26,558 nucleotides of DNA. Origin: Candidatus Hadarchaeum sp. GTDB taxonomy: Archaea; Hadarchaeota; Hadarchaeia; Hadarchaeales; Hadarchaeaceae. How positions within the stretch are numbered: the stretch's first letter is position 1; every line of letters starts with the position of its first letter. Location of the stretch: the NCBI RefSeq assembly GCF_038871235.1, contig NZ_JAVZIN010000013.1:1-26558 (forward strand), given 5' to 3'. Below, in pieces: positions 1,745-26,558 of this stretch. The notes under the pieces were generated by a model. That model was given only the letters and a program-made list of their open reading frames with translations. It did not search any database and had not been told where the DNA came from. Position numbers and translations under genes: made by a program.

Positions 1745-1766
1745 ACCAAGATTACACTTTTTTTCA

Positions 1767-1783
1767 ATTGTTAAACTTTTTCT
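1767..1783 (-). promoter_or_regulatory. BRE/TATA promoter of tRNA-Glu
   Basis: Minus strand reads AGAAAAAGTTTAACAAT, a purine-rich BRE plus TATA-like box about 25-30 nt upstream of the mature tRNA 5' end. Confidence 0.55.
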
Positions 1784-1869
1784 ACCTAACAATAAGCGGC
1801 TTAATTCCTCTTTCCCAGCACGACAACAAAGAATGAAAAGCCAGAGAGCTAAGCTTGAAAAGGTGGAAC

Positions 1870-3414
1870 ATGAACAAAATTGGCACGGCCGCGATAGCTA
1901 TCGTTCTAGCAATCGCTATCTATTGGTCATTTTTTATCTTGCCGCCATCATTCGAGATCAGCGGCCTAGAAATAACACCTGCTGAAGCTGGACCGGGAGA
2001 GATGATTACCATATCTTTGGTGATCAATAACCGCGGGCTGATGTCCGGCGTGTACTCAGCCGACCTTTGGAGCGATAACGAGTTATTGGAATCCAGGACA
2101 ATTGAGGTCGCCGGAGGAGAGGTGAAATGGATATCTTTTACCATCACTCGAGAACTGCCGGGGACCTACCTTCTCAGAATCGGCAGTTTAGTGGGTGAGT
2201 TAAAAATCCTGCGCCCGCCTCAATTTGAAATCACCAATCTGAAGGTTGAGCCCCTAGAGGCAATAGCGGGAGAGAACATCACAGTCACGGCAACGGTGAA
2301 AAATCTGGGAGAAATGGAGGGAACTTACCTCGCCACCCTTACTATAAACGGCACTGTTCTTGAGTCGAAATCCATTACGTTGCCGGGCGGGCTCGCGGAA
2401 ACGGTCACGTTCACCTTCGCCGAAGACCCGGGAGTTTATTTAATCGATGTCGGTGGTCAGACCACCACCGTCACGGTGAAGCCCACCGTGATCTTGATTC
2501 AGCAGGAAACTGAAATCACCTCGGCTGAAAACATCATGCTGCATTTTGAGTGGAAATATAAAACCTGGGAGCTGAAATGGGATTTCTCCATTTCCAAAGA
2601 ACTTTATGATTACTACCGGAGCAGACCGAGGCCGCCAACGGGAAACTACTCGGTGTACGTCACCGACCCTAAGGACGACAACCTTCTCAAGGAGCTAGTG
2701 ATAAAATTCGGCGAAATCGTCTCAAAGTACAATTTTACCGAAACGGAGAAGATCAACTCCATGATCGCTTTCGTGCAGAGCTTGCCCTACACCCCGGACG
2801 AAATCTCCACCCCATACGACGAGTACCCCAGATATCCGCTTGAAACGCTGGTTGACGATGGCGGCGACTGCGAGGACTCATCCATCCTGCTGGCAGCGCT
2901 TCTCAACGCGATGGGTTACGATGTCGTTTTAATTGAGCTGAAGGACCACATGGGTGTTGGAATTTCAGGGGCCTTCTCTGGTTTTTACTACGAATTGGAG
3001 GGAACGAAATACTTCTACATTGAAACCACCGGCACGGGGTGGAAAATCGGGGAGCTGCCCGCTGAGTTCAGGGGCGCCAAGGCCACCTTGTATCCCATCG
3101 AGCCGATCCCGGTTTTAACCCACTCCTGGAAGGCAGAGCAGATAAGTTACCAAGTGCTTGAGCTCACGGTCACGGTGAAGAACGAGGGGACCGCAACCGC
3201 TGAAAACATCTACGTCTACGCCGGGTTCGACGCCGGCGGAGACATGGTGTGGAATCCCCAGAAGAGCGAAAGCTTTTCCCTGCCGCCTAATTCCGAGGCC
3301 CGCGTGACCCTACGGCTCACCATCCCTAAGGACAAGTATACGAGATTGATCGTCCAGATTCTCCTTGGAAACTACGTCACCGACCAGAGCTTCTCAGATT
3401 GGTTCAAGACCTAG
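1870..3414 (+). CDS. Membrane-anchored surface protein with CARDB/Ig-like repeats and a transglutaminase-like Cys-protease domain
   Basis: N-terminal hydrophobic helix, then two homologous repeats (PPSFEISGLEITP... and PPQFEITNLKVEP...). Catalytic-type motifs YPRYPLETL..GGDCEDSSILLAALL, DHMGVG and YIETT follow, then a C-terminal TVTVKNEG Ig-like domain. ATG 1870 follows the SD AGGTGG. Confidence 0.75.
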   Translation: MNKIGTAAIAIVLAIAIYWSFFILPPSFEISGLEITPAEAGPGEMITISLVINNRGLMSGVYSADLWSDNELLESRTIEVAGGEVKWISFTITRELPGTYLLRIGSLVGELKILRPPQFEITNLKVEPLEAIAGENITVTATVKNLGEMEGTYLATLTINGTVLESKSITLPGGLAETVTFTFAEDPGVYLIDVGGQTTTVTVKPTVILIQQETEITSAENIMLHFEWKYKTWELKWDFSISKELYDYYRSRPRPPTGNYSVYVTDPKDDNLLKELVIKFGEIVSKYNFTETEKINSMIAFVQSLPYTPDEISTPYDEYPRYPLETLVDDGGDCEDSSILLAALLNAMGYDVVLIELKDHMGVGISGAFSGFYYELEGTKYFYIETTGTGWKIGELPAEFRGAKATLYPIEPIPVLTHSWKAEQISYQVLELTVTVKNEGTATAENIYVYAGFDAGGDMVWNPQKSESFSLPPNSEARVTLRLTIPKDKYTRLIVQILLGNYVTDQSFSDWFKT

Positions 3415-3448
3415 CTCTAAAAACCGACACCTGCTGGTTCTTAGAAAC

Positions 3449-4147
3449 TCACCGCTGCAAGATTTTTTCCAGCTCCGGTCTCTTCCCAGCTTTAGGATAA
3501 AGGGGGCATGATTCATCGTTCTCAGGACACTTGCCAGCCATGACGCAACTCGGGCCCGCGTTCTCGAATATTTTCGGGGCTACCTTCTTCACCAGCTTAA
3601 GCATTTCATAGGCCAGTTCCCGGATCTCCCACTGGGCATGAGTACAGCACCTCAGCTTGAAGAAATTCATCAATGCCCGGGCGTTCATGGTGACGACTAT
3701 GTTTGCCGCGGCGGCGTTGGGGAGCAGGTAGCGCGCGTCCTCAACCGGAATCCCGCGCTCAATCAAGCTCAGGTAATCCCTCCAGGCGGCATCCATCGCA
3801 GCGATGAAGATCTTCTCGGCCTCCCTGTCCTTGGAAATCGTGGGGGGAACAATATAGTTCTTCTCCAGCTTCACCGCCCTCTGGCTCTGCTGGGAATAGC
3901 TAGCGATCCTGTGCCGGACGAGCTCATGGGTGCAGGCCCGGGAAACTCCTTCAACGCTAAAGGTAAAAGAAGCGTGCTCAATTACCGATTCGTGGCCGCG
4001 CTCCACGCAGACCTCCAAGCTCCGCAGCAGCTTGGATCTTTCCTCCTTGACGATTTCATCCGCTGGTTTTGTGGAGCGACAGGAACGGGCGGCTGCACCG
4101 GCAAGGGCATCGGGATCAGGGGTGTGAGCAATCAGCTTTACCTTCAT
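3449..4147 (-). CDS. thyX: FAD-dependent thymidylate synthase
   Basis: GHESVIEH, ThyX signature RHRIASYSQQSQR, EDARYLLP and HAQWEIR. Confidence 0.96.
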   Translation of the reverse strand: MKVKLIAHTPDPDALAGAAARSCRSTKPADEIVKEERSKLLRSLEVCVERGHESVIEHASFTFSVEGVSRACTHELVRHRIASYSQQSQRAVKLEKNYIVPPTISKDREAEKIFIAAMDAAWRDYLSLIERGIPVEDARYLLPNAAAANIVVTMNARALMNFFKLRCCTHAQWEIRELAYEMLKLVKKVAPKIFENAGPSCVMAGKCPENDESCPLYPKAGKRPELEKILQR

Positions 4148-8111: not shown

Positions 8112-9139
8112 TTCAGGATCTCCGCAATAGTTAGGTTCAAAACTATCTCGGCTATATCGCTGCTGTATTCGGCTATTCTCCTCAGGCTTTCGGATATCAA
8201 TCGAACATTTATTGAATCCTCGTGCGGAATTTCAAGCGTCAGTTTAGCCACCTTTTCCTCCAGCACCTTAGCTTTTTCCTTTTCCACGATTATCTCTTCG
8301 GCAAGATCATAATCCTCCTTAAACAGGGCTCCAACCGATTTTTCCAGCATCGTGTTAGCAAGATTGCTGAGGTTCAATATTCCTCGCAGCACATCCTTAC
8401 TAAGTGGTTTATTAATCAGCTTGACCCTTTCCGCGATCAAGGCCGCGTGGTCGGCAATTCTTTCCACGCTTTTAACTATCAGCCTGTAGCCGAGACAATC
8501 TCTGGCATTTCGCAAACCTATCTCCTTTATGGAACGTGGGTCTTGCACTGCCAATTTTATTTGTCTTATCACATACATGCTAAATCGATCAACCTCATTG
8601 TCCAGCCTGATCACCTCTTCAGCGGCGCCTTTGTCTAAACTTTCCAGAGCTGATATGGCGTCCCTCTGCATGGAGGAAGCGATCAAAAACATCCGTCTGA
8701 GGGCATCTCTGACGGAAAGCTCTGGATAGCTCAGCAACACCTGTATGGTCATCTCGTTTGGGGAATCGGCAATCAGCTCGGCTCCGACCAGCTTTTCCCT
8801 GACATAACTTTTTATGACCTCACGCTGTGGCGGTGAAAGCCTACCTTCAGCCATAAGATGAATCACGTGGTAACCGACAAGGTACAAGGAGACGACCTTT
8901 CTAGCCAGCTTATAGGGGTCATCGCTGGGGGAAATTTTAATCGTGGCCTCAGCTGCTTTCTTCTCTTCCTGAATTCTAGGTGGTAATATCTGAAGCGTGG
9001 AATCTTCAAGTCTTTTTACGACCAGACCATCGCCCGGCTTTATCCTATTTTCTTCGATCCAGTGCTTAGGCAGAGAAACTATGTAGGTGGACCCACCAGT
9101 TCTCTGCACTTTCCTAATCTCCCCTTTTATTTCCAACAC
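8108..9139 (-). CDS. Archaeal phosphate uptake regulator (AbrB-like DNA-binding domain plus PhoU repeats)
   Basis: N-terminal RKVQRTGGSTYIVSLPKHW (AbrB/SpoVT) and PhoU motifs ERIADHA and RRIAEYS. Divergent from pstS. Confidence 0.9.
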   Translation of the reverse strand: MLEIKGEIRKVQRTGGSTYIVSLPKHWIEENRIKPGDGLVVKRLEDSTLQILPPRIQEEKKAAEATIKISPSDDPYKLARKVVSLYLVGYHVIHLMAEGRLSPPQREVIKSYVREKLVGAELIADSPNEMTIQVLLSYPELSVRDALRRMFLIASSMQRDAISALESLDKGAAEEVIRLDNEVDRFSMYVIRQIKLAVQDPRSIKEIGLRNARDCLGYRLIVKSVERIADHAALIAERVKLINKPLSKDVLRGILNLSNLANTMLEKSVGALFKEDYDLAEEIIVEKEKAKVLEEKVAKLTLEIPHEDSINVRLISESLRRIAEYSSDIAEIVLNLTIAEILK

Positions 9140-9164
9140 ATCACCAATCAGCTTTTTTTTGTGA

Positions 9165-9250
9165 ACGTAAATATATATTTTTCCAAATAAAATAAATTAA
9201 TATATAGATTATTGGTAGAAACAATAAAAATAGCGTATTCTATATAAAAT
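9165..9250. promoter_or_regulatory. AT-rich divergent promoter region between the PhoU-type regulator and pstS
   Basis: Palindrome AAATATATATTT at 9169-9180 and inverted pair TATATAGA (9201-9208) / TCTATATA (9239-9246). Confidence 0.55.
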
Positions 9251-9260
9251 CGATGAGAAA

Positions 9261-10091
9261 ATGAAATCGAAAGTTATAGCGTCTGGAGTCTTGGTAGCGG
9301 CTGTCATCATTGCCTCTGCCATTTTATTGCAAGGAACCACCAATCAATCCTCCACGCCGAGATCAATAAACATCAAGGGTTCCACAACGGTACTGCCCAT
9401 AGCCCAAGCTGCCGCAGAAGCTTGGATGGACTCCCATCCCAACGACAAAATAATAGTTGAGGGCGGCGGCTCCGGCGTTGGCATTGCAGCCCTGATAGAC
9501 GGCACCTGTGACATAGCAAATTCATCGAGAACTTTGAAGGACGAGGAAAAACAGAAGGGCCTAATTGAACACCGAATTGCCTTGGATGCCGTTTGCGTGA
9601 TCGTTAACTCGCAGAACCCTGTTAACGGGCTAAGCTTGGAACAGGTGAAGGCGATATTCAAGGGTGAAATAACCAACTGGAGCGAGGTGGGAGGACCAAA
9701 TCTTGAAATAGTTGTTTACACCAGGGAATCAACATCCGGCACCTTCGAAACCTTTGAGACCAAGGTAATGAAACCCGACAACATCACCTTGCGGGCACTG
9801 ACCAAAACATCCAACGGAGAAATGGTTCAAGCGATCTCCGGAAATCCTAACGGCATCGGATACGTAGGTATAGGATACTTGGCTAACGCTACAGGCATTA
9901 AGGCATTGAAAATAAATGGAGTCGAGCCATCGACCAGCACGGTTCAAAGCGGAACTTTCCCCATTTCTAGGTATCTCTATATGATAACTAAAGGACAACC
10001 TGAGGGGCTAGTCAGGGACTTCATAGACTTCGTCACCAGCACCAGCGGACAAAAAATAGCTGAGGAACATGGCTTCGTTAAACTCCCATAG
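9261..10091 (+). CDS. pstS: Phosphate ABC transporter substrate-binding protein
   Basis: N-terminal anchor, GSTTVLP, GGGSGVG, DIANSSR, RESTSGT and FPISRYLY. Confidence 0.95.
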   Translation: MKSKVIASGVLVAAVIIASAILLQGTTNQSSTPRSINIKGSTTVLPIAQAAAEAWMDSHPNDKIIVEGGGSGVGIAALIDGTCDIANSSRTLKDEEKQKGLIEHRIALDAVCVIVNSQNPVNGLSLEQVKAIFKGEITNWSEVGGPNLEIVVYTRESTSGTFETFETKVMKPDNITLRALTKTSNGEMVQAISGNPNGIGYVGIGYLANATGIKALKINGVEPSTSTVQSGTFPISRYLYMITKGQPEGLVRDFIDFVTSTSGQKIAEEHGFVKLP

Positions 10092-10120
10092 GCCGCCAAA
10101 GGCGCGGCCTTCTTTTTTTT
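10090..10120 (+). terminator. GC hairpin plus U-tract between pstS and pstC
   Basis: AGGCCGC-CAAAGGC-GCGGCCT followed by TCTTTTTTTT. Confidence 0.6.
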
Positions 10121-10134
10121 AGAGGTTGAGGACT

Positions 10135-11010
10135 ATGAAAAAAATTAAAGTAAAATTCTCTGGAAGAATCCTCACAGCTATATTTGCCTCCATTTCCATT
10201 CTCGCCGTCTTCTTCATCTTTATCTTCATATTCTCGCAGGGGCTACCTCTTTTCACTGAAATTGGTCTGTCTGATTTCCTCTTCAATCTCACTTGGAGAC
10301 CAACCGCCTCGCCGCCTTCCTTCGGCATAATACCGCTGGTCTTGGGATCCCTCTTGGTCACTGGATTGGCCCTACTCATCTCCGTCCCCATCGGTCTTCT
10401 CGGAGCAATTTACATCGCGGAGATTGCCGGGTCTAAGGTCAGGGAACTGCTCAAACCTGTCATAGAAATACTTTCCGGAATCCCCTCGATCGTTTATGGT
10501 TTCTTTGGGCTGATCTTCCTAGTCCCCGCGATGCAGGCGACGTTTGGGTTACCTACAGGAGAAACCGCTCTGACGGGAGGGATAATCTTGGCAATAATGG
10601 TTCTTCCTACGATCCTGAGCATCGCCGAGGACGCGATGAGTTCAGTGCCGGCGGATTACAAAGAAGCCTCTCTGGCCTTAGGAGCAACCAAATGGAGAAC
10701 CATCAGAAGCGTGACGATACCGGCGGCGGCTTCGGGAATTGCTGCCGGCATCATCCTTGGCTTCGGCAGAGCTATTGGTGAAACCATCGCGGTAATGATG
10801 GTAACCGGAGGCTCACCAATAATTCCCACATCTATTTTTTCTCCCGTTAGAACAATGACCCAGACTATAGCCGCCGAGATGGGTGAGGCTGTCTTTGGCG
10901 GCTTACACTATAACTCACTTTTCGCCATCGGCATAGTTCTGTTCATCTTAACCTTTATCTTGAACTTGGTTGCGGTCAAGCTCATAAAAAAACATGGGGG
11001 CGGCAAATGA
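10135..11010 (+). CDS. pstC: Phosphate ABC transporter permease PstC
   Basis: Hydrophobic protein with LSGIPSIVYG, EASLALGATKW and RAIGETIAV. ATG 10135 follows GAGG. Confidence 0.95.
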   Translation: MKKIKVKFSGRILTAIFASISILAVFFIFIFIFSQGLPLFTEIGLSDFLFNLTWRPTASPPSFGIIPLVLGSLLVTGLALLISVPIGLLGAIYIAEIAGSKVRELLKPVIEILSGIPSIVYGFFGLIFLVPAMQATFGLPTGETALTGGIILAIMVLPTILSIAEDAMSSVPADYKEASLALGATKWRTIRSVTIPAAASGIAAGIILGFGRAIGETIAVMMVTGGSPIIPTSIFSPVRTMTQTIAAEMGEAVFGGLHYNSLFAIGIVLFILTFILNLVAVKLIKKHGGGK

Positions 11011-22509: not shown

Positions 22510-23616
22510 TCACCCCTCATATTTTCCAAAATCCCTCGCTGCCCTGACCATGGCGTGGATGCTTGATGGTGGCGATCCGTGAGGACACTCGCAGGCCAAA
22601 CCTGAGATGAAACCATTGGGGCTGTCCTTCGCGGCCAAAATCTGTTCCTTCGCCATCTCATAAACCTGAGTCGGTGAACCGGAAAAGGTCAAGGTGGTGT
22701 CTATGTTTCCCATCAAAGTGGCACGCTTGCCATAGAGCTGCTTCAGCTTCTCCAGCGGGAACGGCTTCCTGCCCTCGTATCCGACCTGCATGACGGTGAA
22801 TGGTGTGAAAATGGTGTCCTTCCACAGCTCCCAGTCCTTGGCATGGTTGCCGCAGTGGTGATACCAGATCTGCGGCCCGGCACCTATCTTGAGGGCCTTC
22901 TTGACCAGCTCTGAAACGTACTTCACACCGAACTCCTTGACCTGCTTCGGGCCCAGCAGGTCGCTGCCGGCAACCGTGGAACCGGTCACTATCATGGCAC
23001 TTCCGTACCTCTCAACCAAGGCCCTGCAGCCGTTGAGCGAGGTCTCCATAAACTTCTGGATCAATTTATGGCACAGCGGTGGATTTCTAATCGTCATCAC
23101 CAGAAATTTCTCCAAGCCTATGAGCTGAGATGCGTTTGCCTCGGGATGAAAGGCAAAATAGAGCGGAACGAACCAGTTGGGGTAGTTATCCCGCACGTAA
23201 TCAAAGGCCTCAACAAAGGAAGTGTAGGTGGGTCCCTTTTTGATCTCCTCCTCGCTAACGACCTCAAGCTTGTCGATGTCCTCGGGGGTCTTTATCGCGT
23301 TTTCCTTGATGTGTGGAGGCTGGTTCTCCCTCCACTCTAGCTTGTTCCCCATCTCCTGCTCCCAGACGTGAATGGTCGGCCACCAGTGGGCCACAGGTAT
23401 TAAGTCAAATGTCTCGTGGGCGGCGATGACGGAGGCAATGCCCTTCTTAGGGTTAAGGTACCACTCCTTGGCGGACATTCCGGCCAAGTACCCGGCCTCG
23501 GACAACAGAATGGGATCAACGTCAATTCTATCATAAGGCTTATCCACAAATGGCGCGGCGAATCTCTTTGTGGCATGCTCCACCCATTTGGGATCGGGAT
23601 CCACAATATACTTCAA
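22510..23616 (-). CDS. UroD-superfamily, MtaA/CmuA-like methylcobamide-dependent methyltransferase
   Basis: TIM-barrel size, IKTPEDIDKL, Zn-ligand pattern HHCG ... LACEC, LMGNID and HAMVRAAR. TTG start follows GGTGG. Confidence 0.75.
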   Translation of the reverse strand: MKYIVDPDPKWVEHATKRFAAPFVDKPYDRIDVDPILLSEAGYLAGMSAKEWYLNPKKGIASVIAAHETFDLIPVAHWWPTIHVWEQEMGNKLEWRENQPPHIKENAIKTPEDIDKLEVVSEEEIKKGPTYTSFVEAFDYVRDNYPNWFVPLYFAFHPEANASQLIGLEKFLVMTIRNPPLCHKLIQKFMETSLNGCRALVERYGSAMIVTGSTVAGSDLLGPKQVKEFGVKYVSELVKKALKIGAGPQIWYHHCGNHAKDWELWKDTIFTPFTVMQVGYEGRKPFPLEKLKQLYGKRATLMGNIDTTLTFSGSPTQVYEMAKEQILAAKDSPNGFISGLACECPHGSPPSSIHAMVRAARDFGKYEG

Positions 23617-23693
23617 ATCCCCACCAGTGATATCACGGTGTTACTCTTTTTTATCATTTTTGAAAAAGCTCCGAGGACATCTATCAAAGAAGA

Positions 23694-23723
23694 GGCGGGC
23701 CCGGTGGGATTTGAACCCACGAT
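23694..23723 (-). repeat. att site: duplicated 3' half of a tRNA (T-arm plus acceptor strand)
   Basis: Minus strand ATCGTGGGTTCAAATCCCACCGGGCCCGCC gives T-stem GTGGG/CCCAC, T-loop TTCAAAT, acceptor 3' strand CGGGCCC, discriminator G and CC. No matching 5' half is adjacent. Confidence 0.9.
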
Positions 23724-24594
23724 ATGCACCAGAGGGTTTGAGAAAAAGTTTGACCAAAAAGCGATTGAAGAAATTATGAGCCGTTTCAGGCAGCACCTCG
23801 AGATAGATTTGCTGAGAGCGCCGAGGACTGTTGACACCCATGTGAGGAACGCGCGGGAGTTTTTGGAGTTTGTGGCAAAGCCGCCGGAGCTGATAACCGC
23901 TGATGACGTGAGGAGCTATCTGGCGCAGCACCGACACCGACACCCCAACACCTACATGCACCGGCTGAAGGCGGTCCGGGTTTTCCTGCGCTACATTGGC
24001 AAGGAGGAGATCGGAAAAATGTTCAAGTTCCCGCGCCTGGAGCCGCCGTTTCAGGAAGCGCCCAAGGATGACGAGCTGGCAAAGTTCTACCAAGCGCTGG
24101 AGAGCCTGCACGATAAGGCCTTCTTCCTGGTGCTGGCCACAAGCGGGCTCAGATACAGCGAGGCGAAAAGCCTGAGAGTGGAGGATATCGACCTCGACAC
24201 CGGGATGGTGGTGCCGCACCGGAACGAGGTCAGGACCATCGGCACCAAGAACACCGGCATGACCTTCATCAACGGCGAGGCGCTCGAGGTGTTGAAGCAA
24301 TACCTGAAGGAGAGCGGCAAAAACAGCGGGCAAATTTTCGATGAGCTCAGAGGGAAATCGGGGACATGGTATAGATGGAAAATCGCGCGGGAGAAGTCTG
24401 GCACTAAAATCAGGCCCAAGGACCTGAGGCTTTGGTTCAACGTGAAAATGGCGCTGGCCGGTGTCCCAGATCGCTACGTTGACTTTTTCTGCGGCCGGGC
24501 CAGAAGGACCATCATCGCGCGGCATTACTCGGAATATTCGCCTGGGATCCTCAAAGAGATCTACAACAGGGCCGGGCTGAGGGTGCTGGGCTAG
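23695..24594 (+). CDS. int: SSV-type tyrosine integrase, C-terminal fragment int(C) split at the att site
   Basis: Begins with the tRNA-antisense peptide AGPVGFEPT, then a core-binding region. Catalytic residues are R (SGLRYSE), K (GTKN), KxxR (KDLR), R (CGRA) and Y (ARHY). First internal ATG is at 23776. Confidence 0.88.
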   Translation, partial: AGPVGFEPTICTRGFEKKFDQKAIEEIMSRFRQHLEIDLLRAPRTVDTHVRNAREFLEFVAKPPELITADDVRSYLAQHRHRHPNTYMHRLKAVRVFLRYIGKEEIGKMFKFPRLEPPFQEAPKDDELAKFYQALESLHDKAFFLVLATSGLRYSEAKSLRVEDIDLDTGMVVPHRNEVRTIGTKNTGMTFINGEALEVLKQYLKESGKNSGQIFDELRGKSGTWYRWKIAREKSGTKIRPKDLRLWFNVKMALAGVPDRYVDFFCGRARRTIIARHYSEYSPGILKEIYNRAGLRVLG

Positions 24595-24600
24595 GGCTGA

Positions 24601-24633
24601 GGCAGGCGCAGGGAGAGCGGCAGGCAGGGAGAG
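24601..24633 (+). repeat. Short imperfect tandem repeat downstream of the integrase
   Basis: GGCAGGCGCAGGGAGAG (24601-24617) and GGCAGGCAGGGAGAG (24619-24633). Confidence 0.5.
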
Positions 24634-24710
24634 AAATATAACAGTGTGATTAACGCAAATAATCTTAAAAAATCGCTCAGCCGAGTTTTAATTGGAAAAA
24701 ATTAAAAGAG

Positions 24711-24935
24711 GTGGTAAAAACGCGCGGCGCCATTGCGGTAATTTTCAGCAGCATCATCATGATCGCCGTGCTAGGCTGGGTCACCAACACCGTGCTGGGC
24801 AGCGTCCAAGCGGACAACGACATCCTCGGGGTCGAGTCGGCCCTGGCTACCTACGGACCCGTCGTCGTCACCATCACCATCATAGGCCTGTTCGTGCTCG
24901 GCGTTGGGGTGATGCTGAGGTTCCTGGTTGGATGA
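24711..24935 (+). CDS. Small two-hydrophobic-helix protein, candidate spindle-shaped-virus major capsid protein
   Basis: 74 aa: hydrophobic helix, polar linker (VQADND), G-x9-P, second hydrophobic helix, then a basic residue. It has its own AT-rich upstream region and a downstream T-tract. Confidence 0.6.
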   Translation: MVKTRGAIAVIFSSIIMIAVLGWVTNTVLGSVQADNDILGVESALATYGPVVVTITIIGLFVLGVGVMLRFLVG

Positions 24936-24949
24936 GGCCCTGAAGCTGA

Positions 24950-24981
24950 TTTTATTTTTTTTGACCTTTTTTTCATTTTTT
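24950..24981 (+). terminator. Oligo-T archaeal terminator
   Basis: TTTTATTTTTTTGACCTTTTTTTCATTTTTT directly after the small membrane gene. Confidence 0.6.
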
Positions 24982-25049
24982 ACTAACTGTCTCCCATCTG
25001 CTAATTTTTGGCACCATCATTTCTCCGAGTTGGGACAGGAGATAGATTA

Positions 25050-26069
25050 TTATGATTTGGTGATGCTCTTACCAAATAACTTAATCCAAGCGTCATTTAT
25101 CTGTTTCAAGTAAAACTCATATTTCTCCTTTGCTTGCTCTAATTTAGTGTGTCTTTTGTCATGGCCCGCGCATTTCTTTTCCTCTTTGATTTGTTTTTCT
25201 ATCTGTTCTTTTCCTTTCAAAAGCGCGGTGCTTCCTTCCTGGCAAAATTTAATCCACAATTGAATTAATTCTGGGTTTATCTCTGGAATTTGCTGTTTAA
25301 GTTCCTCAAGTTTTTCTATGGCCAATTTAGCCAAATAAGTCGTTTCGCTTTTCAGTTTGTTTTCCGTTTCCACATAAGTGAAATCTAATTCGTAAAAAAC
25401 ATCTATATTTTTTAAAAAGATTGGCGCGTATTCGTTGAAGTCAGAAATTGACGGTCGTTTTTTTACTGGGACCAACTGTTTGTTTTTGTAAAGAGCTAAA
25501 AGCGAGATAACTTCCAGAACAAGACTTGCGAGAAAAAGAGCGGGCCGAAGAGGAACTATACGGAAAAAATGCGTATAGTTGAGTTCTTTTGTTTTGGAGG
25601 TTTCATATTCCGCGGCGGCGTTTTTTATTGACATCCATTCAAATAGTGCGTGGCCGTTATTTCTCAAAAAATCTAAACATGTTTGATGACTGGCCGGCAC
25701 CTCTGCGGCTGCCTTTTCATTTTCTAGCCTAATTTCTTTAATTTTTTTCTTGAAAGCATCAAACAACACGAGTGCGTCATAAACCCATGGAACAGTAAAG
25801 ATAATGGGTCTAACCTCAAAATTCTGACTGGTAGGATATACTATTAGCGGCTTCCCTGCTGCGTGGACTTCTTGACGCGTTTCGATCAGTCCTGCCGCTT
25901 TCAATTTTCTTATGTGTTTAAGCATGCCTTGGGGCGTGATTTTGAAAAGATCGGCCAACTCAGTTAATTTCATTGGTCGTTCATATACTTTTTTTAGAAT
26001 CTCTTTTCTAATATTTGAAAGTATATTCGCGGTCATAATCGCACTTTCGTGAATTAAGTGTCTCTTCAT
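25050..26069 (-). CDS. ArsR-like winged-HTH protein with a large uncharacterised helical C-terminal region
   Basis: IRKEILKKVYERPMKLTELADLFKITPQGMLKHIRKLKAAGLI fits ArsR/HTH_20. The ORF is 339 codons of AT-rich DNA, and the start may be the second Met. Confidence 0.75.
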   Translation of the reverse strand: MKRHLIHESAIMTANILSNIRKEILKKVYERPMKLTELADLFKITPQGMLKHIRKLKAAGLIETRQEVHAAGKPLIVYPTSQNFEVRPIIFTVPWVYDALVLFDAFKKKIKEIRLENEKAAAEVPASHQTCLDFLRNNGHALFEWMSIKNAAAEYETSKTKELNYTHFFRIVPLRPALFLASLVLEVISLLALYKNKQLVPVKKRPSISDFNEYAPIFLKNIDVFYELDFTYVETENKLKSETTYLAKLAIEKLEELKQQIPEINPELIQLWIKFCQEGSTALLKGKEQIEKQIKEEKKCAGHDKRHTKLEQAKEKYEFYLKQINDAWIKLFGKSITKS

Positions 26070-26103
26070 GTTTAAATACTTTTTTGTTGTTTAAATTTTA
26101 TTT

Positions 26104-26145
26104 TTTAAACCAGAAAGGTTTAAATATTAGAAAACCAAAGTGGTT
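26104..26145. promoter_or_regulatory. Divergent promoter with two AACC-N5-GGTT palindromic operators
   Basis: AACC-AGAAA-GGTT at 26108-26120 extends to TTTAAACC/GGTTTAAA (26104-26124). AACC-AAAGT-GGTT is at 26133-26145. BRE-TATA GAAAGGTTTAAATA is at 26113-26126. Confidence 0.65.
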
Positions 26146-26162
26146 AATGAAGGTAGTAGGAT

Positions 26163-26342
26163 ATGGTAAAAAAAGTCCCGTTGGTGGCGTTGGTCCCGCG
26201 CGAGCTGAAAACTGCGCTTGAACTTGCGATCCTCGAGAAGCACGGCGTGGTTGGGAATAAAATCAGCCCCACCGTTGAGGCCATCATCCGTGAATGGATT
26301 GAGAAGAACCGGGGTGTGATCGCGAATGAGGAGCACGGATGA
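26163..26342 (+). CDS. Small ribbon-helix-helix (CopG/Arc-like) DNA-binding protein
   Basis: Not in the ORF track (59 aa): MVKKVPLVALVPRELKTALELAILEKHGVVGNKISPTVEAIIREWIEKNRGVIANEEHG. Pattern is strand, P-helix, turn, IS..VE..IREW helix. Confidence 0.65.
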   Translation: MVKKVPLVALVPRELKTALELAILEKHGVVGNKISPTVEAIIREWIEKNRGVIANEEHG

Positions 26343-26558
26343 TCATATCTACATAGCAAACAAACCGGCGGAAGCCTACGCGGTGGCCGTGCTTACTTCT
26401 TTTAGCCACGGGATCAAACGGGTGCGCATCCAGGGGCTGGGGCAGCAGGCGGGCAAAGTGCTGGCCGTGGCCAAGCTCCTTTCCGACACGGGGCAGGCCC
26501 GGATCGTTGAAATCAAGCCCATCACCAAAGAGGGCATCAAGGGCACTCTCGCCACACT
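26326..26558 (+). CDS. Divergent Alba-like nucleic-acid-binding protein (3'-truncated by window edge)
   Basis: Not in the ORF track: MRSTDDHIYIANKPAEAYAVAVLTSFSHGIKRVRIQGLGQQAGKVLAVAKLL... follows the Alba pattern (I-G-x-KP-xxx-Y...G...V-x-I-KARG-x-AI-x-KA). SD GGGGTG lies upstream. Confidence 0.65.
   Translation, partial: MRSTDDHIYIANKPAEAYAVAVLTSFSHGIKRVRIQGLGQQAGKVLAVAKLLSDTGQARIVEIKPITKEGIKGTLAT

What the first reader, a model, noticed from the sequence alone, without database searches (positions are those of the whole stretch)
23694..26558. tRNA-integrated element with a split SSV-type integrase: candidate novel archaeal provirus
Seen: a 30-bp tRNA 3' half on the minus strand is read in frame as AGPVGFEPT at the start of a tyrosine recombinase with the R..K..KxxR..R..Y set. 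It is followed by a capsid-like gene, a wHTH/RHH divergent pair and an Alba-like gene. Established: SSV1/pTN3-type integrases carry attP inside their own gene and are split into int(N) and int(C) on integration into a tRNA. Inference: this is the left boundary of a provirus or integrated plasmid in an anaerobic archaeon. The intact minus-strand tRNA (acceptor GGGCCCG, discriminator G, probably Arg or Lys) and int(N) should lie at the far right end.
Basis: partly seen in the sequence, partly recalled or inferred. Interest (0 to 1): 0.88.

Follow-up and report, generated by a model that had tools for sequence, protein, structure and literature searches.

The report
Mobile element inserted in tRNA-Arg gene
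A small mobile DNA element has inserted itself into an arginine tRNA gene of a hot-spring Hadarchaeum archaeon and cut its own integrase gene in two in doing so, a known archaeal trick seen here in a new host and with an unusual integrase; nothing shows that it is a virus.

Summary
The core observation holds. Window 23689-23728 is an exact 40-bp copy of the 3' part of a tRNA gene. It is read in frame (EEAGPVGFEPTIC) at the head of a tyrosine recombinase C-terminal part, Int(C). The window is a whole contig (C13). The predicted partner lies at the end of contig C9: an intact, two-intron tRNA-Arg(UCU) that holds the same 40 bp, overlapped by a 120-aa Int(N) reading the core in the same frame. 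Joined, they give a 376-aa integrase.

Three congeneric genomes have the empty site, with URO-D gene, tRNA and phosphoglucosamine mutase contiguous. This is therefore a real insertion, at least 5.1 kb long, with its middle unassembled. The host is Candidatus Hadarchaeum from hot springs.

The integrase is self-splitting ("suicidal", SSV-type) by behaviour. By sequence it is not in the SSV family: it lies nearer pNOB8 integrase and scores strongly against XerA, and it carries an N-terminal ribbon-helix-helix domain. At least 495 relatives were found in metagenome contigs.

The "provirus" and "capsid-like" readings are unsupported. The 74-aa protein is a two-helix membrane hairpin with one homolog and no viral match. 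Best label: cryptic integrated element.

The parts
22510..23616 (-). Host flank: URO-D-family (methyltransferase-like) gene, not part of the element
   Evidence: Pfam URO-D 2.5e-38. It is 95-96% identical (99% for a partial copy) in four congeners. In three of them it lies next to the tRNA and the PGM gene with no element between.
23689..23728 (.). attL: exact 40-bp core GAAGAGGCGGGCCCGGTGGGATTTGAACCCACGATATGCA. It is the antisense of tRNA-Arg from the last 3 nt of the anticodon stem through the T arm, acceptor and discriminator, plus 7 nt of 3' trailer.
   Evidence: Identical to C9:63309-63348. In sample X1 the core forms a separate 40-nt record at depth 29, between flanks at depth 11.2 and 10.3.
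23689..24594 (+). Int(C): the C-terminal 301 codons of the split integrase, with a SAM-like core-binding domain and the catalytic domain. It has no start codon of its own at the core; gene callers use a GTG at 23638.
   Evidence: (P0001). Y280 aligns with SSV1 Int Y314.
24711..24935 (+).
   Evidence: One non-self homolog, P0044, at 56% identity. AF2 model: helices 2-34 and 38-73, pLDDT 73. BFVD: 0 matches at E<=0.001. hhalign against SSV1 VP3: probability 0.4%.
25050..26069 (-). 339-aa ArsR-type winged-helix regulator with a long unknown C-terminal part. Compositional outlier: GC 37.5% against 54-60% for neighbouring element genes.
   Evidence: Pfam HTH_20 1.1e-08 and HTH_5 4.5e-06. Atlas hits are ArsR clusters only, scoring 0.88. 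GC. Contigs of the related strain in X3 give no cover of 25049-26231 and those of X4 almost none (depth 0.76-1.67 in two bins).
26163..26342 (+). 59-aa ORF divergent from the wHTH gene; an RHH-like pattern that is unverified
   Evidence: No family hit. Fold inconclusive.
26326..26558 (+). Divergent Alba-like gene; first 77 codons, cut by the contig end
   Evidence: PF01918 30 bits against a cut-off of 25. NCBIfam AlbA 31 bits, below its cut-off of 90. The host's own Alba is on C8 at 77.9 bits.

Best explanation
This is a cryptic integrated mobile element, at least 5.1 kb long, in the chromosome of a hot-spring Candidatus Hadarchaeum.

How it got there: a circular form carried a 376-aa tyrosine integrase gene. 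Its attP is a 40-bp copy of the 3' part of tRNA-Arg(UCU), lying inside the ORF at codons 76-89. That places it between an N-terminal ribbon-helix-helix domain and a XerA/pNOB8-like core-binding plus catalytic body. Site-specific recombination between attP and the tRNA gene (attB) inserted the element.

What the insertion left behind:
- An intact tRNA-Arg at attR (contig C9), overlapped antisense by Int(N), 120 aa.
- A 33-nt tRNA 3' fragment plus trailer at attL (window 23689-23728), followed by Int(C).

The integrase gene is therefore destroyed by its own reaction, the 'suicidal' or SSV-type mechanism. No other tyrosine recombinase gene was detected in the MAG. Excision would therefore need an intact copy from an episomal or incoming relative. 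This last step is inferred.

Shown here: the att duplication, the in-frame split, the intact tRNA, the empty site in relatives, and the presence of the catalytic residues.

Inferred: the circular intermediate, present-day mobility, and the roles of the cargo. That cargo comprises two small membrane proteins, an ArsR regulator, an Alba-like protein, and a 115-aa and other small ORFs.
For: (1) The exact 40-bp repeat occurs on two contigs, and on C9 it lies inside a full tRNA.
(2) Int(N) on C9 (L004:7766-8128, minus strand) and Int(C) read the core in the same frame. Int(N) residues 76-89 match window 23689-23730. 75 + 301 = 376 aa, within the 367-393 aa of the unsplit homologs P0007, P0021, P0017, P0005 and P0026.
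(3) Empty attB. In 3 of 3 informative congeners (G007, G002, G006) the C13 flank aligns only up to window 23728 and the C9 flank only up to the tRNA end. The two alignments overlap by about 35 nt. In the fourth congener (G001) the contig ends inside the URO-D gene.
(4) With two introns removed, the tRNA is a 75-nt tRNA-Arg(TCT) in G000 and its 3 orthologs. Differences between orthologs fall mostly in the proposed introns, with a few in the D- and T-loops.
(5) Catalytic set R155, K187, K244xxR247, R270, Y280. Profile alignment to SSV1 Int (probability 97%, E 9.7e-11) puts Y280 on the SSV1 nucleophile Y314 and our att peptide on SSV1's ADPPGFEPGTSG at residue 64. The SSV1 record annotates its integration site at those same codons.
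(6) The Int(N) ribbon-helix-helix is supported by Pfam CcdA, 25.9 bits against a cut-off of 22.4. It is 51% identical to the Int(N) of a mini-element in G009.
(7) The trait belongs to the family. 45 of 76 metagenome relatives with the region in view have an antisense T-arm at the equivalent place, against 0 of 181 control segments.
(8) In X1, element contigs have depths of 8.7-10.3 against 11.2 for the host flank. That fits a single integrated copy.
Against: - The middle of the element is missing. C13 and C9 ends do not overlap. An X1 contig runs 1204 nt beyond the window end. P0165 shows at least 17 more codons beyond the C9 end. Replication or virion genes could therefore lie in the gap.
- No attP junction or circular form was seen. 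The public contigs break inside the core, so neither the occupied nor the empty form could be bridged in the source sample.
- The 'K' of KxxR is not conserved across the family; it is Q or S in many members.
- The bulge-helix-bulge splice motifs of the two proposed tRNA introns were not verified.
Confidence: 0.85

Rival explanations
1. It is a provirus of a new, possibly spindle-shaped or other membrane-containing, archaeal virus. The 74-aa protein and perhaps the 81-aa two-helix protein on C9 would be its capsid proteins.
For: Capsid proteins of spindle-shaped viruses are small with two hydrophobic helices (recalled knowledge). The 74-aa product folds as such a hairpin, and a second two-helix ORF lies on C9. 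Self-splitting integrases were first found in fuselloviruses (PMC8371274, passages read). A relative of this integrase sits in a tailed provirus (L018; HK97-type head protein and protease hits), so viruses do use the family.
Against: - No PHROGs, Pfam or NCBIfam hit for any cargo gene beyond DNA-binding domains.
- BFVD fold search: 0 matches at E<=0.001, and no archaeal virus among the 50 matches listed.
- hhalign against SSV1 VP3: probability 0.4%.
- tblastn against the phage collection, which holds SSV1: one hit at E=6.
- Only 2 of 68 related loci have a small two-helix ORF downstream of the integrase.
- None of the 11 cargo or Int(N) queries except Int(N) itself was found in the 92 related loci searched.
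- Related bounded elements are 2.6-8.4 kb of unannotated genes.
Confidence: 0.12
2. It is an immobile, decaying remnant: a trapped element on its way to loss or domestication.
For: The only PF00589 match in the MAG is the split Int(C), so no intact integrase is at hand. Relatives show decay: G038:C2 and G003:C1 copies carry stops, and the att peptides of the G009 mini-element differ from each other.
Against: Both 40-bp cores are 100% identical. Int(N) and Int(C) have no internal stops, and all catalytic residues are kept. Three congeners at 83-88% flank identity lack the element, so the insertion is recent.
Confidence: 0.15
3. It is an assembly or binning artefact: the two contigs belong to different organisms, and the shared 40 bp is only a conserved tRNA end.
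For: tRNA 3' ends are conserved. Several other contexts of the same core exist in the samples (loose ends). The window is from a MAG.
Against: Both host flanks are contiguous around one tRNA in three congeners. The identity extends 7 nt beyond the tRNA, and both integrase halves read it in one frame. Depths of flank and element agree.
Confidence: 0.02

Closest known systems
SSV1 integrase and provirus (Fuselloviridae), the type I 'suicidal' integration paradigm
   Same: The att lies inside the int ORF at the same relative place: SSV1 codons 64-78 of 335, here 76-89 of 376. The target is the 3' part of a tRNA-Arg gene, with a 44-bp repeat in SSV1 and a 40-bp repeat here. The gene is split into Int(N) and Int(C). 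The catalytic Tyr aligns, Y314 with Y280, and the KxxR and GR motifs are shared (PMC3293823 and PMC8371274, passages read).
   Different: Homology is only remote: 22% identity, and tblastn against the phage collection, which holds SSV1, did not find it. SSV1 Int has full-length PF16795 (207 bits) plus PF07935. Ours has partial PF16795 (35 bits), PF00589, a SAM-like domain and an N-terminal RHH. No fusellovirus genes were found.
pNOB8-type and XerA recombinases (classical archaeal tyrosine recombinases)
   Same: These gave the strongest sequence scores. Profile A1 against pNOB8 Int: probability 99.3%, E 1.8e-20 over 258 columns, the best of the three integrases compared by hhalign. Against P. 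abyssi XerA (4a8e): hmmsearch E 4.7e-34 over the whole body. The architecture is the same: a SAM-like domain plus PF00589.
   Different: By definition those enzymes keep their gene intact on integration, or resolve chromosome dimers. Here the att is inside the gene. The NCBIfam XerA score of 90.9 bits is below its cut-off of 220. They have no N-terminal RHH.
pT26-2 and pTN3 families of suicidal integrases (Thermococcales plasmids)
   Same: They also split themselves on integration into tRNA genes in Euryarchaeota (PMC7253208 abstract; PMC8371274, passages and section 9).
   Different: They are more distant in sequence than pNOB8: pT26-2 Int gives probability 95.3%, E 2.4e-08 over 168 columns. 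pTN3 was not compared. Those elements are plasmids of 12-24 kb with known replication genes.
Small integrative plasmids with SSV-type integrases and thaumarchaeal cryptic integrated elements
   Same: These are small elements whose only recognisable mobility gene is a self-splitting integrase. Examples are the 5740-bp S. solfataricus P2 plasmid and the 6970-bp S. islandicus plasmid (the names pSSVi and pXZ1 are recalled). NitEve-E3, a cryptic integrated element, has a split SSV1-like integrase and no viral genes (PMC6563490, passage read).
   Different: The host phylum differs (Hadarchaeota) and so does the integrase family. There is no shared cargo.

Membership tests
Type I / SSV-type / 'suicidal' integrase (functional class) | The recombination site (attP) lies inside the integrase ORF | tested here: met
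   The 40-bp core is read in the same frame by Int(N) and Int(C).
Type I / SSV-type / 'suicidal' integrase (functional class) | Integration splits the gene into Int(N) and Int(C) at opposite ends of the element, next to direct repeats in a tRNA gene | tested here: met
   Int(C) is at C13 attL. Int(N) and the intact tRNA-Arg are at C9 attR. The site is empty in 3 congeners.
Type I / SSV-type / 'suicidal' integrase (functional class) | R...KxxR...Y consensus (She et al., as quoted in PMC8371274) | tested here: met
   R155, K244-D-L-R247 and Y280 are present in this protein, and Y280 aligns with SSV1 Y314. The K is not conserved in family alignment A1.
Type I / SSV-type / 'suicidal' integrase (functional class) | Catalyses integration and excision on its att site | not testable with these tools
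   This needs biochemistry. No attP or attB junction could be read from public contigs.
SSV integrase sequence family (Pfam PF16795 + PF07935) | Full-length Phage_integr_3 catalytic domain | tested here: not met
   35 bits over profile positions 94-147 of 161, against 207 bits over 2-161 for SSV1 Int.
SSV integrase sequence family (Pfam PF16795 + PF07935) | N-terminal SSV1_ORF_D-335 domain | tested here: not met
   Int(N) hits only the CcdA-like RHH. SSV1 Int hits PF07935 at 117.7 bits.
XerA (NCBIfam NF040815, equivalog) | Score above the curated cut-off of 220 bits | tested here: not met
   90.9 bits.
pNOB8-type (type II) integrase | The gene stays intact after integration, with att outside the ORF | tested here: not met
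   The gene is split, although this is the closest by sequence of the three integrases compared by hhalign.
Provirus of a spindle-shaped virus (Fuselloviridae-like) | VP1/VP3-type major capsid protein | tested here: inconclusive
   The two-helix topology is compatible. There is no sequence or fold similarity.
Provirus of a spindle-shaped virus (Fuselloviridae-like) | Other conserved fusellovirus genes (DnaA-like ATPase, end-filament protein) | tested here: inconclusive
   None found in the roughly 5 kb in hand. The unassembled middle could not be examined.
tRNA-Arg(UCU) gene as target | Cloverleaf with anticodon UCU after intron removal | tested here: met
   Rfam tRNA 43.5 bits. The two-intron model gives a 75-nt tRNA-Arg(TCT) in 4 of 4 orthologs. 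BHB motifs were not verified.
Alba (PF01918) | Score above Pfam's gathering cut-off | tested here: met
   30 bits against 25, but below the NCBIfam cut-offs. The gene is truncated by the contig end.

The most novel reading that the evidence does not exclude
The integrase represents a large, undescribed family of self-splitting integrases with three features. It sits on the XerA/pNOB8 side of the archaeal tyrosine-recombinase superfamily rather than with the SSV, pTN3 and pT26-2 families. It carries an N-terminal ribbon-helix-helix domain that survives integration as a stand-alone Int(N) protein. It is spread over many uncultured archaea (at least 495 metagenome contigs) on elements ranging from 2.6-kb mini-elements to tailed proviruses. 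If so, either the 'suicidal' architecture arose more than once or it is older and wider than the single recent origin in hyperthermophiles proposed in the 2021 review. In addition, the element itself could still prove to be the first virus or plasmid type defined for Hadarchaeota.
Probability: 0.3. Interest if true: 0.65.

Novelty: new variant of a known kind. Interest (0 to 1): 0.42.

Why it matters
Hadarchaeota are uncultured and their mobile elements are almost undescribed. My searches 'Hadarchaeota'+'provirus' (3 papers) and 'Hadarchaeota'+'integrase' (5 papers) turned up only one survey that counts a few proviruses. A cleanly delimited element with an exact att site, a known tRNA target and an empty site in sister species gives three things: a concrete handle for studying gene flow in this phylum, a candidate integration tool, and a test case for how integrases that destroy their own gene persist. 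The integrase's position nearer pNOB8 than the known self-splitting families, with a strong XerA match, bears on whether this odd architecture evolved once or several times.

Tried and rejected
Approaches that led nowhere or were rejected:
- **Capsid reading of the 74-aa gene.** Rejected as unsupported.
- **Alba gene and the 98-aa open ORF on C9 as two halves of one gene, which would make the contigs abut.** Rejected. The only representative hit, P0165, is a stand-alone 115-aa protein with 17 residues upstream of the C9 end.
- **Contig-end overlaps.** None between C13 and C9. Only C8/C16 (127 nt) and C4/C9 (22 nt) overlap.
- **Search for the element in other collections.**
  - No match of window 24600-26558 in 40 relatives.
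  - No relative of the wHTH gene in IMG/VR.
  - Single-protein integrase scans of genome and viral contigs gave only distant or no hits.
- **ARAGORN's own intron call, tRNA-Phe(GAA).** Rejected as implausible. Brute-force single-intron deletion was too noisy.
- **CRISPR.** One array on C1 with 19 spacers; none matches the element parts in hand. The best match is 16 nt.
- **Laid public contigs.** They break inside the att core, so they say nothing about attP, attB or a circle. An X3 contig covering the flank up to 23728 runs on for 89 nt unlike the window, and I could not see those letters. The lack of cover of 25049-26231 in X3 and the near-lack in X4 is only a hint.
- **Terminal repeats in five IntC...IntN contigs.** None found, so they are not circular assemblies.

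- The look-up of encoding contigs: closed and not called. The 362-kb contig that carries an identical 74-aa gene could therefore not be fetched.
- Supplements of papers were not seen. Table S1 of PMC8371274 could show whether this family was already binned.

Full report
**What is at the coordinates**

The window is the whole of contig C13 of a 1.205-Mb, 16-contig assembly estimated 94.75% complete. It occurs exactly twice in the assembly, at C13:23694-23723 and C9:63314-63343. A 2-mismatch relative lies on C10, and the reversed control pattern gave no match. Extending both copies gives an exact 40-bp repeat, window 23689-23728 = C9:63309-63348. The frame through the core reads EEAGPVGFEPTIC and stays open for 301 codons to the stop at 24594. 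The product hits Pfam Phage_integrase (1.5e-12), Phage_int_SAM_4 (1e-08) and, over residues 231-283 only, Phage_integr_3 (1.6e-08). PHROGs calls it an integrase (1.4e-21).

**The predicted partner exists**

On C9 the second copy lies inside a full tRNA (Rfam RF00005, 43.5 bits against a gathering score of 29). The copy sits 2.1 kb from the contig end. On the opposite strand a 120-aa ORF (L004:7766-8128, minus strand) starts with MPEYVC, reads the same core in the same frame (...RVEEAGPVGFEPTIC), then runs on antisense through the tRNA. Its residues 76-89 match window 23689-23730.

The two halves therefore add up to 75 + 301 = 376 aa. This sits within the 367-393 aa of five longer, apparently unsplit homologs (P0007, P0021, P0017, P0005, P0026). 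P0005 may instead be a fusion with an upstream gene, because its N-terminus has P-loop hits. Int(N) carries a ribbon-helix-helix domain (Pfam CcdA, 25.9 bits against a cut-off of 22.4).

**It is an insertion**

The host gene left of the core is a URO-D-family gene. The gene beside the tRNA on C9 is a phosphoglucosamine mutase. I fetched the URO-D locus from the four congeners that have it and aligned both junctions.
- In G007, G002 and G006 the C13 side aligns only up to window 23728.
- In the same three genomes the C9 side aligns only up to the tRNA 3' end.
- The two alignments overlap by about 35 nt in each genome.

In these genomes URO-D, tRNA and PGM are therefore contiguous and no element is present. 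The fourth congener (G001) has a contig that ends inside URO-D. This is the empty attB.

**Target tRNA**

ARAGORN's own reading (Phe, 10-nt intron) is not credible. Comparing four orthologs and the C10 paralog shows two variable blocks. Removing a block of 17-19 nt after position 29 and a block of 12-14 nt at 37/38 gives a 75-nt tRNA in each sequence. ARAGORN calls these Arg(TCT) in 4 of 4 orthologs and Arg(TCG) in the paralog. I did not verify bulge-helix-bulge motifs. The att core covers the tRNA from the last three bases of the anticodon stem to the discriminator, plus 7 nt of trailer. It lies downstream of both introns.

**Host**

Homologs of the PGM at 95-84% identity are named Candidatus Hadarchaeum or Hadarchaeaceae. 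The holders among public runs are hot-spring metagenomes. The label 'Candidatus Hodarchaeaceae' on a same-family MAG looks like a naming slip: P0009 is identical to an ORF of G009, and P0127 carries the same label among Hadarchaeales hits.

**What kind of integrase**

By behaviour it meets the definition of type I, SSV-type or 'suicidal' integrases given in PMC8371274 (passages read). The att is inside the gene, the gene is split on integration, and the R...KxxR...Y consensus is present (R155, K244xxR247, Y280).

A profile of 16 family members (A1) aligns with SSV1 Int at probability 97%, E 9.7e-11. That alignment puts Y280 on the SSV1 nucleophile Y314. It also puts our att peptide on SSV1's ADPPGFEPGTSG at residue 64. 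The SSV1 record annotates its 44-bp integration site at the same place.

By sequence, however, the family scores better against classical recombinases:

| Compared with | Method | Result |
|---|---|---|
| P. abyssi XerA (4a8e) | hmmsearch of PDB | E 4.7e-34 over the whole body |
| SSV1 Int structures | hmmsearch of PDB | about 2e-05 over 49 residues |
| pNOB8 Int | hhalign | probability 99.3%, E 1.8e-20 |
| SSV1 Int | hhalign | probability 97.0%, E 9.7e-11 |
| pT26-2 Int | hhalign | probability 95.3%, E 2.4e-08 |

The two methods are not strictly comparable. SSV1 Int has full-length PF16795 (207 bits) plus PF07935. Ours has neither in full. It is also not XerA: NCBIfam gives 90.9 bits against a cut-off of 220. 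Section 9 of the review (read) says the self-splitting families carry PF16795 and arose once. This family does not fit that description neatly.

**A family trait**

A metagenome scan with A1 gave at least 495 confirmed relatives, of which 80 were kept.
- In 44 of 80 the att-equivalent position is within 300 nt of a contig end.
- In 45 of the 76 with the region in view an antisense T-arm stands there, against 0 of 181 control segments.
- Upstream peptides such as RARWDLNP, GRERFELS and PDRIRT are translated tRNA ends.
- Unsplit forms with an RHH followed by a tRNA-like stretch occur in L074, L083 and L093.
- Five contigs of 3.5-8.4 kb start with Int(C) and end with an Int(N)-like ORF. They have no terminal repeats and unannotated cargo.

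In G009, of the same family, Int(C) and Int(N) lie only about 1.4 kb apart around a HEPN gene. Its Int(N) is 51% identical to ours over the RHH. The one IMG/VR relative sits in a tailed provirus with HK97-type head protein and protease. The integrase therefore does not tell what kind of element carries it. Among 41 Hadarchaeales genomes, G000 included, 15 have a match at E<=0.001.

**Cargo: virus or not**

Assembled parts in the window:
- A 74-aa two-helix protein.
- A 339-aa ArsR-type regulator.
- A 59-aa ORF.
- A truncated, divergent Alba-like gene.

Assembled parts on C9:
- A 98-aa open ORF, which is 115 aa in the near-identical P0165.
- A small ORF I guessed to be AbrB-like, with no family hit.
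- An 81-aa two-helix protein.
- A 68-aa CxxC ORF.
- Int(N).

Evidence on the 74-aa protein:
- One non-self homolog, at 56% identity.
- It folds as a helical hairpin (pLDDT 73).
- No BFVD match at E<=0.001.
- No similarity to SSV1 VP3 (probability 0.4%).
- No credible hit in the phage collection.

No replication, packaging or structural gene was recognised. None of the cargo was found in the 92 related loci searched or in 40 relatives (for 24600-26558). The fitting label is 'cryptic integrated element', in the sense of PMC6563490 (passages read). A virus remains possible because the middle is missing.

**Size and state**

The two pieces hold 2870 + 2137 bp, and the contig ends do not overlap. 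An X1 contig runs 1204 nt past the window end and an X2 contig 517 nt. P0165 adds at least 51 nt beyond the C9 end. The element is therefore at least about 5.1 kb.

Depths in X1 are 11.2 for the host flank and 8.7-10.3 for element contigs. The 40-nt core is a separate record at depth 29, and other tRNA contexts contribute to that figure. Because public contigs break in the core, neither attP nor attB could be assessed in the source sample.

The cores are identical and both halves are free of stops, so the insertion is recent. The MAG has no other PF00589 match, so excision would need an intact copy from elsewhere. That is the situation the review describes for such integrases.

**Verdict**

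The 'provirus' and 'capsid' claims are not supported. The case is a new host and a new sequence variant of a known mechanism.

Noticed in passing
G000 contig C9:63237-63343 and C10:2631-2739 (outside the window): The target tRNA-Arg(UCU) and its paralog tRNA-Arg(UCG) each appear to carry two short introns. One is at the non-canonical position 29/30 (17-19 nt) and one at 37/38 (12-14 nt). ARAGORN misreads both genes as Phe.
   Followed up: partly
whole G000 and 40 relatives: No genome of this order reaches the NCBIfam XerA equivalog cut-off (0 of 41, G000 included). Several few-contig genomes have no match at all. In G000 the split Int(C) is the only PF00589 match. Hadarchaeales may lack a canonical XerA.
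   Followed up: partly
window 25050-26162: The ArsR-type gene and its upstream spacer are strongly AT-rich (GC 37.5% and 22.6%) inside an element of 54-60% GC. Contigs of a roughly 95%-identical strain in another study (X3, X4) cover the integrase and 74-aa genes, and X3 also the Alba gene, but X3 gives no cover of this stretch and X4 almost none. This suggests a recently acquired cargo gene.
   Followed up: partly
G000 contig C1:1-1450: CRISPR array at a contig start, with at least 20 copies of a 37-bp repeat and 19 spacers of 34-38 nt. None matches the element parts or any fetched locus.
   Followed up: yes
L099 (G009:C1) 8266-10884: A mini-element of about 2.6 kb in a same-family genome. 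Int(C) and Int(N) of the same integrase family flank a single HEPN-domain gene, and their att peptides already differ.
   Followed up: partly
G004:C97 (L100) 1759-4142: Two integrase copies of this family lie in tandem on one 7.7-kb contig of a congener, one of them with a TGA inside. This may be a tandem integration at one site.
   Followed up: no
names: MAGs that GTDB places in the Hadarchaeaceae carry the NCBI label 'Candidatus Hodarchaeaceae archaeon', an Asgard family. This looks like a naming mix-up that could mislead host assignments.
   Followed up: partly
window 23115-23728 in run X3 (record 19): A 700-nt contig of a related strain covers the host flank up to the end of the att core, then runs on for 89 nt unlike the window. 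The five bases before its core equal those on the Int(N) side of G000. It may be an empty site or another junction; the letters were not shown.
   Followed up: no
L018 (IMGVR_UViG_3300035179_000508): A 26-kb predicted viral contig encodes a 34%-identical integrase of this family next to an HK97-type major head protein, a head maturation protease and an HNH endonuclease. It is a tailed archaeal provirus using the same integrase family.
   Followed up: partly
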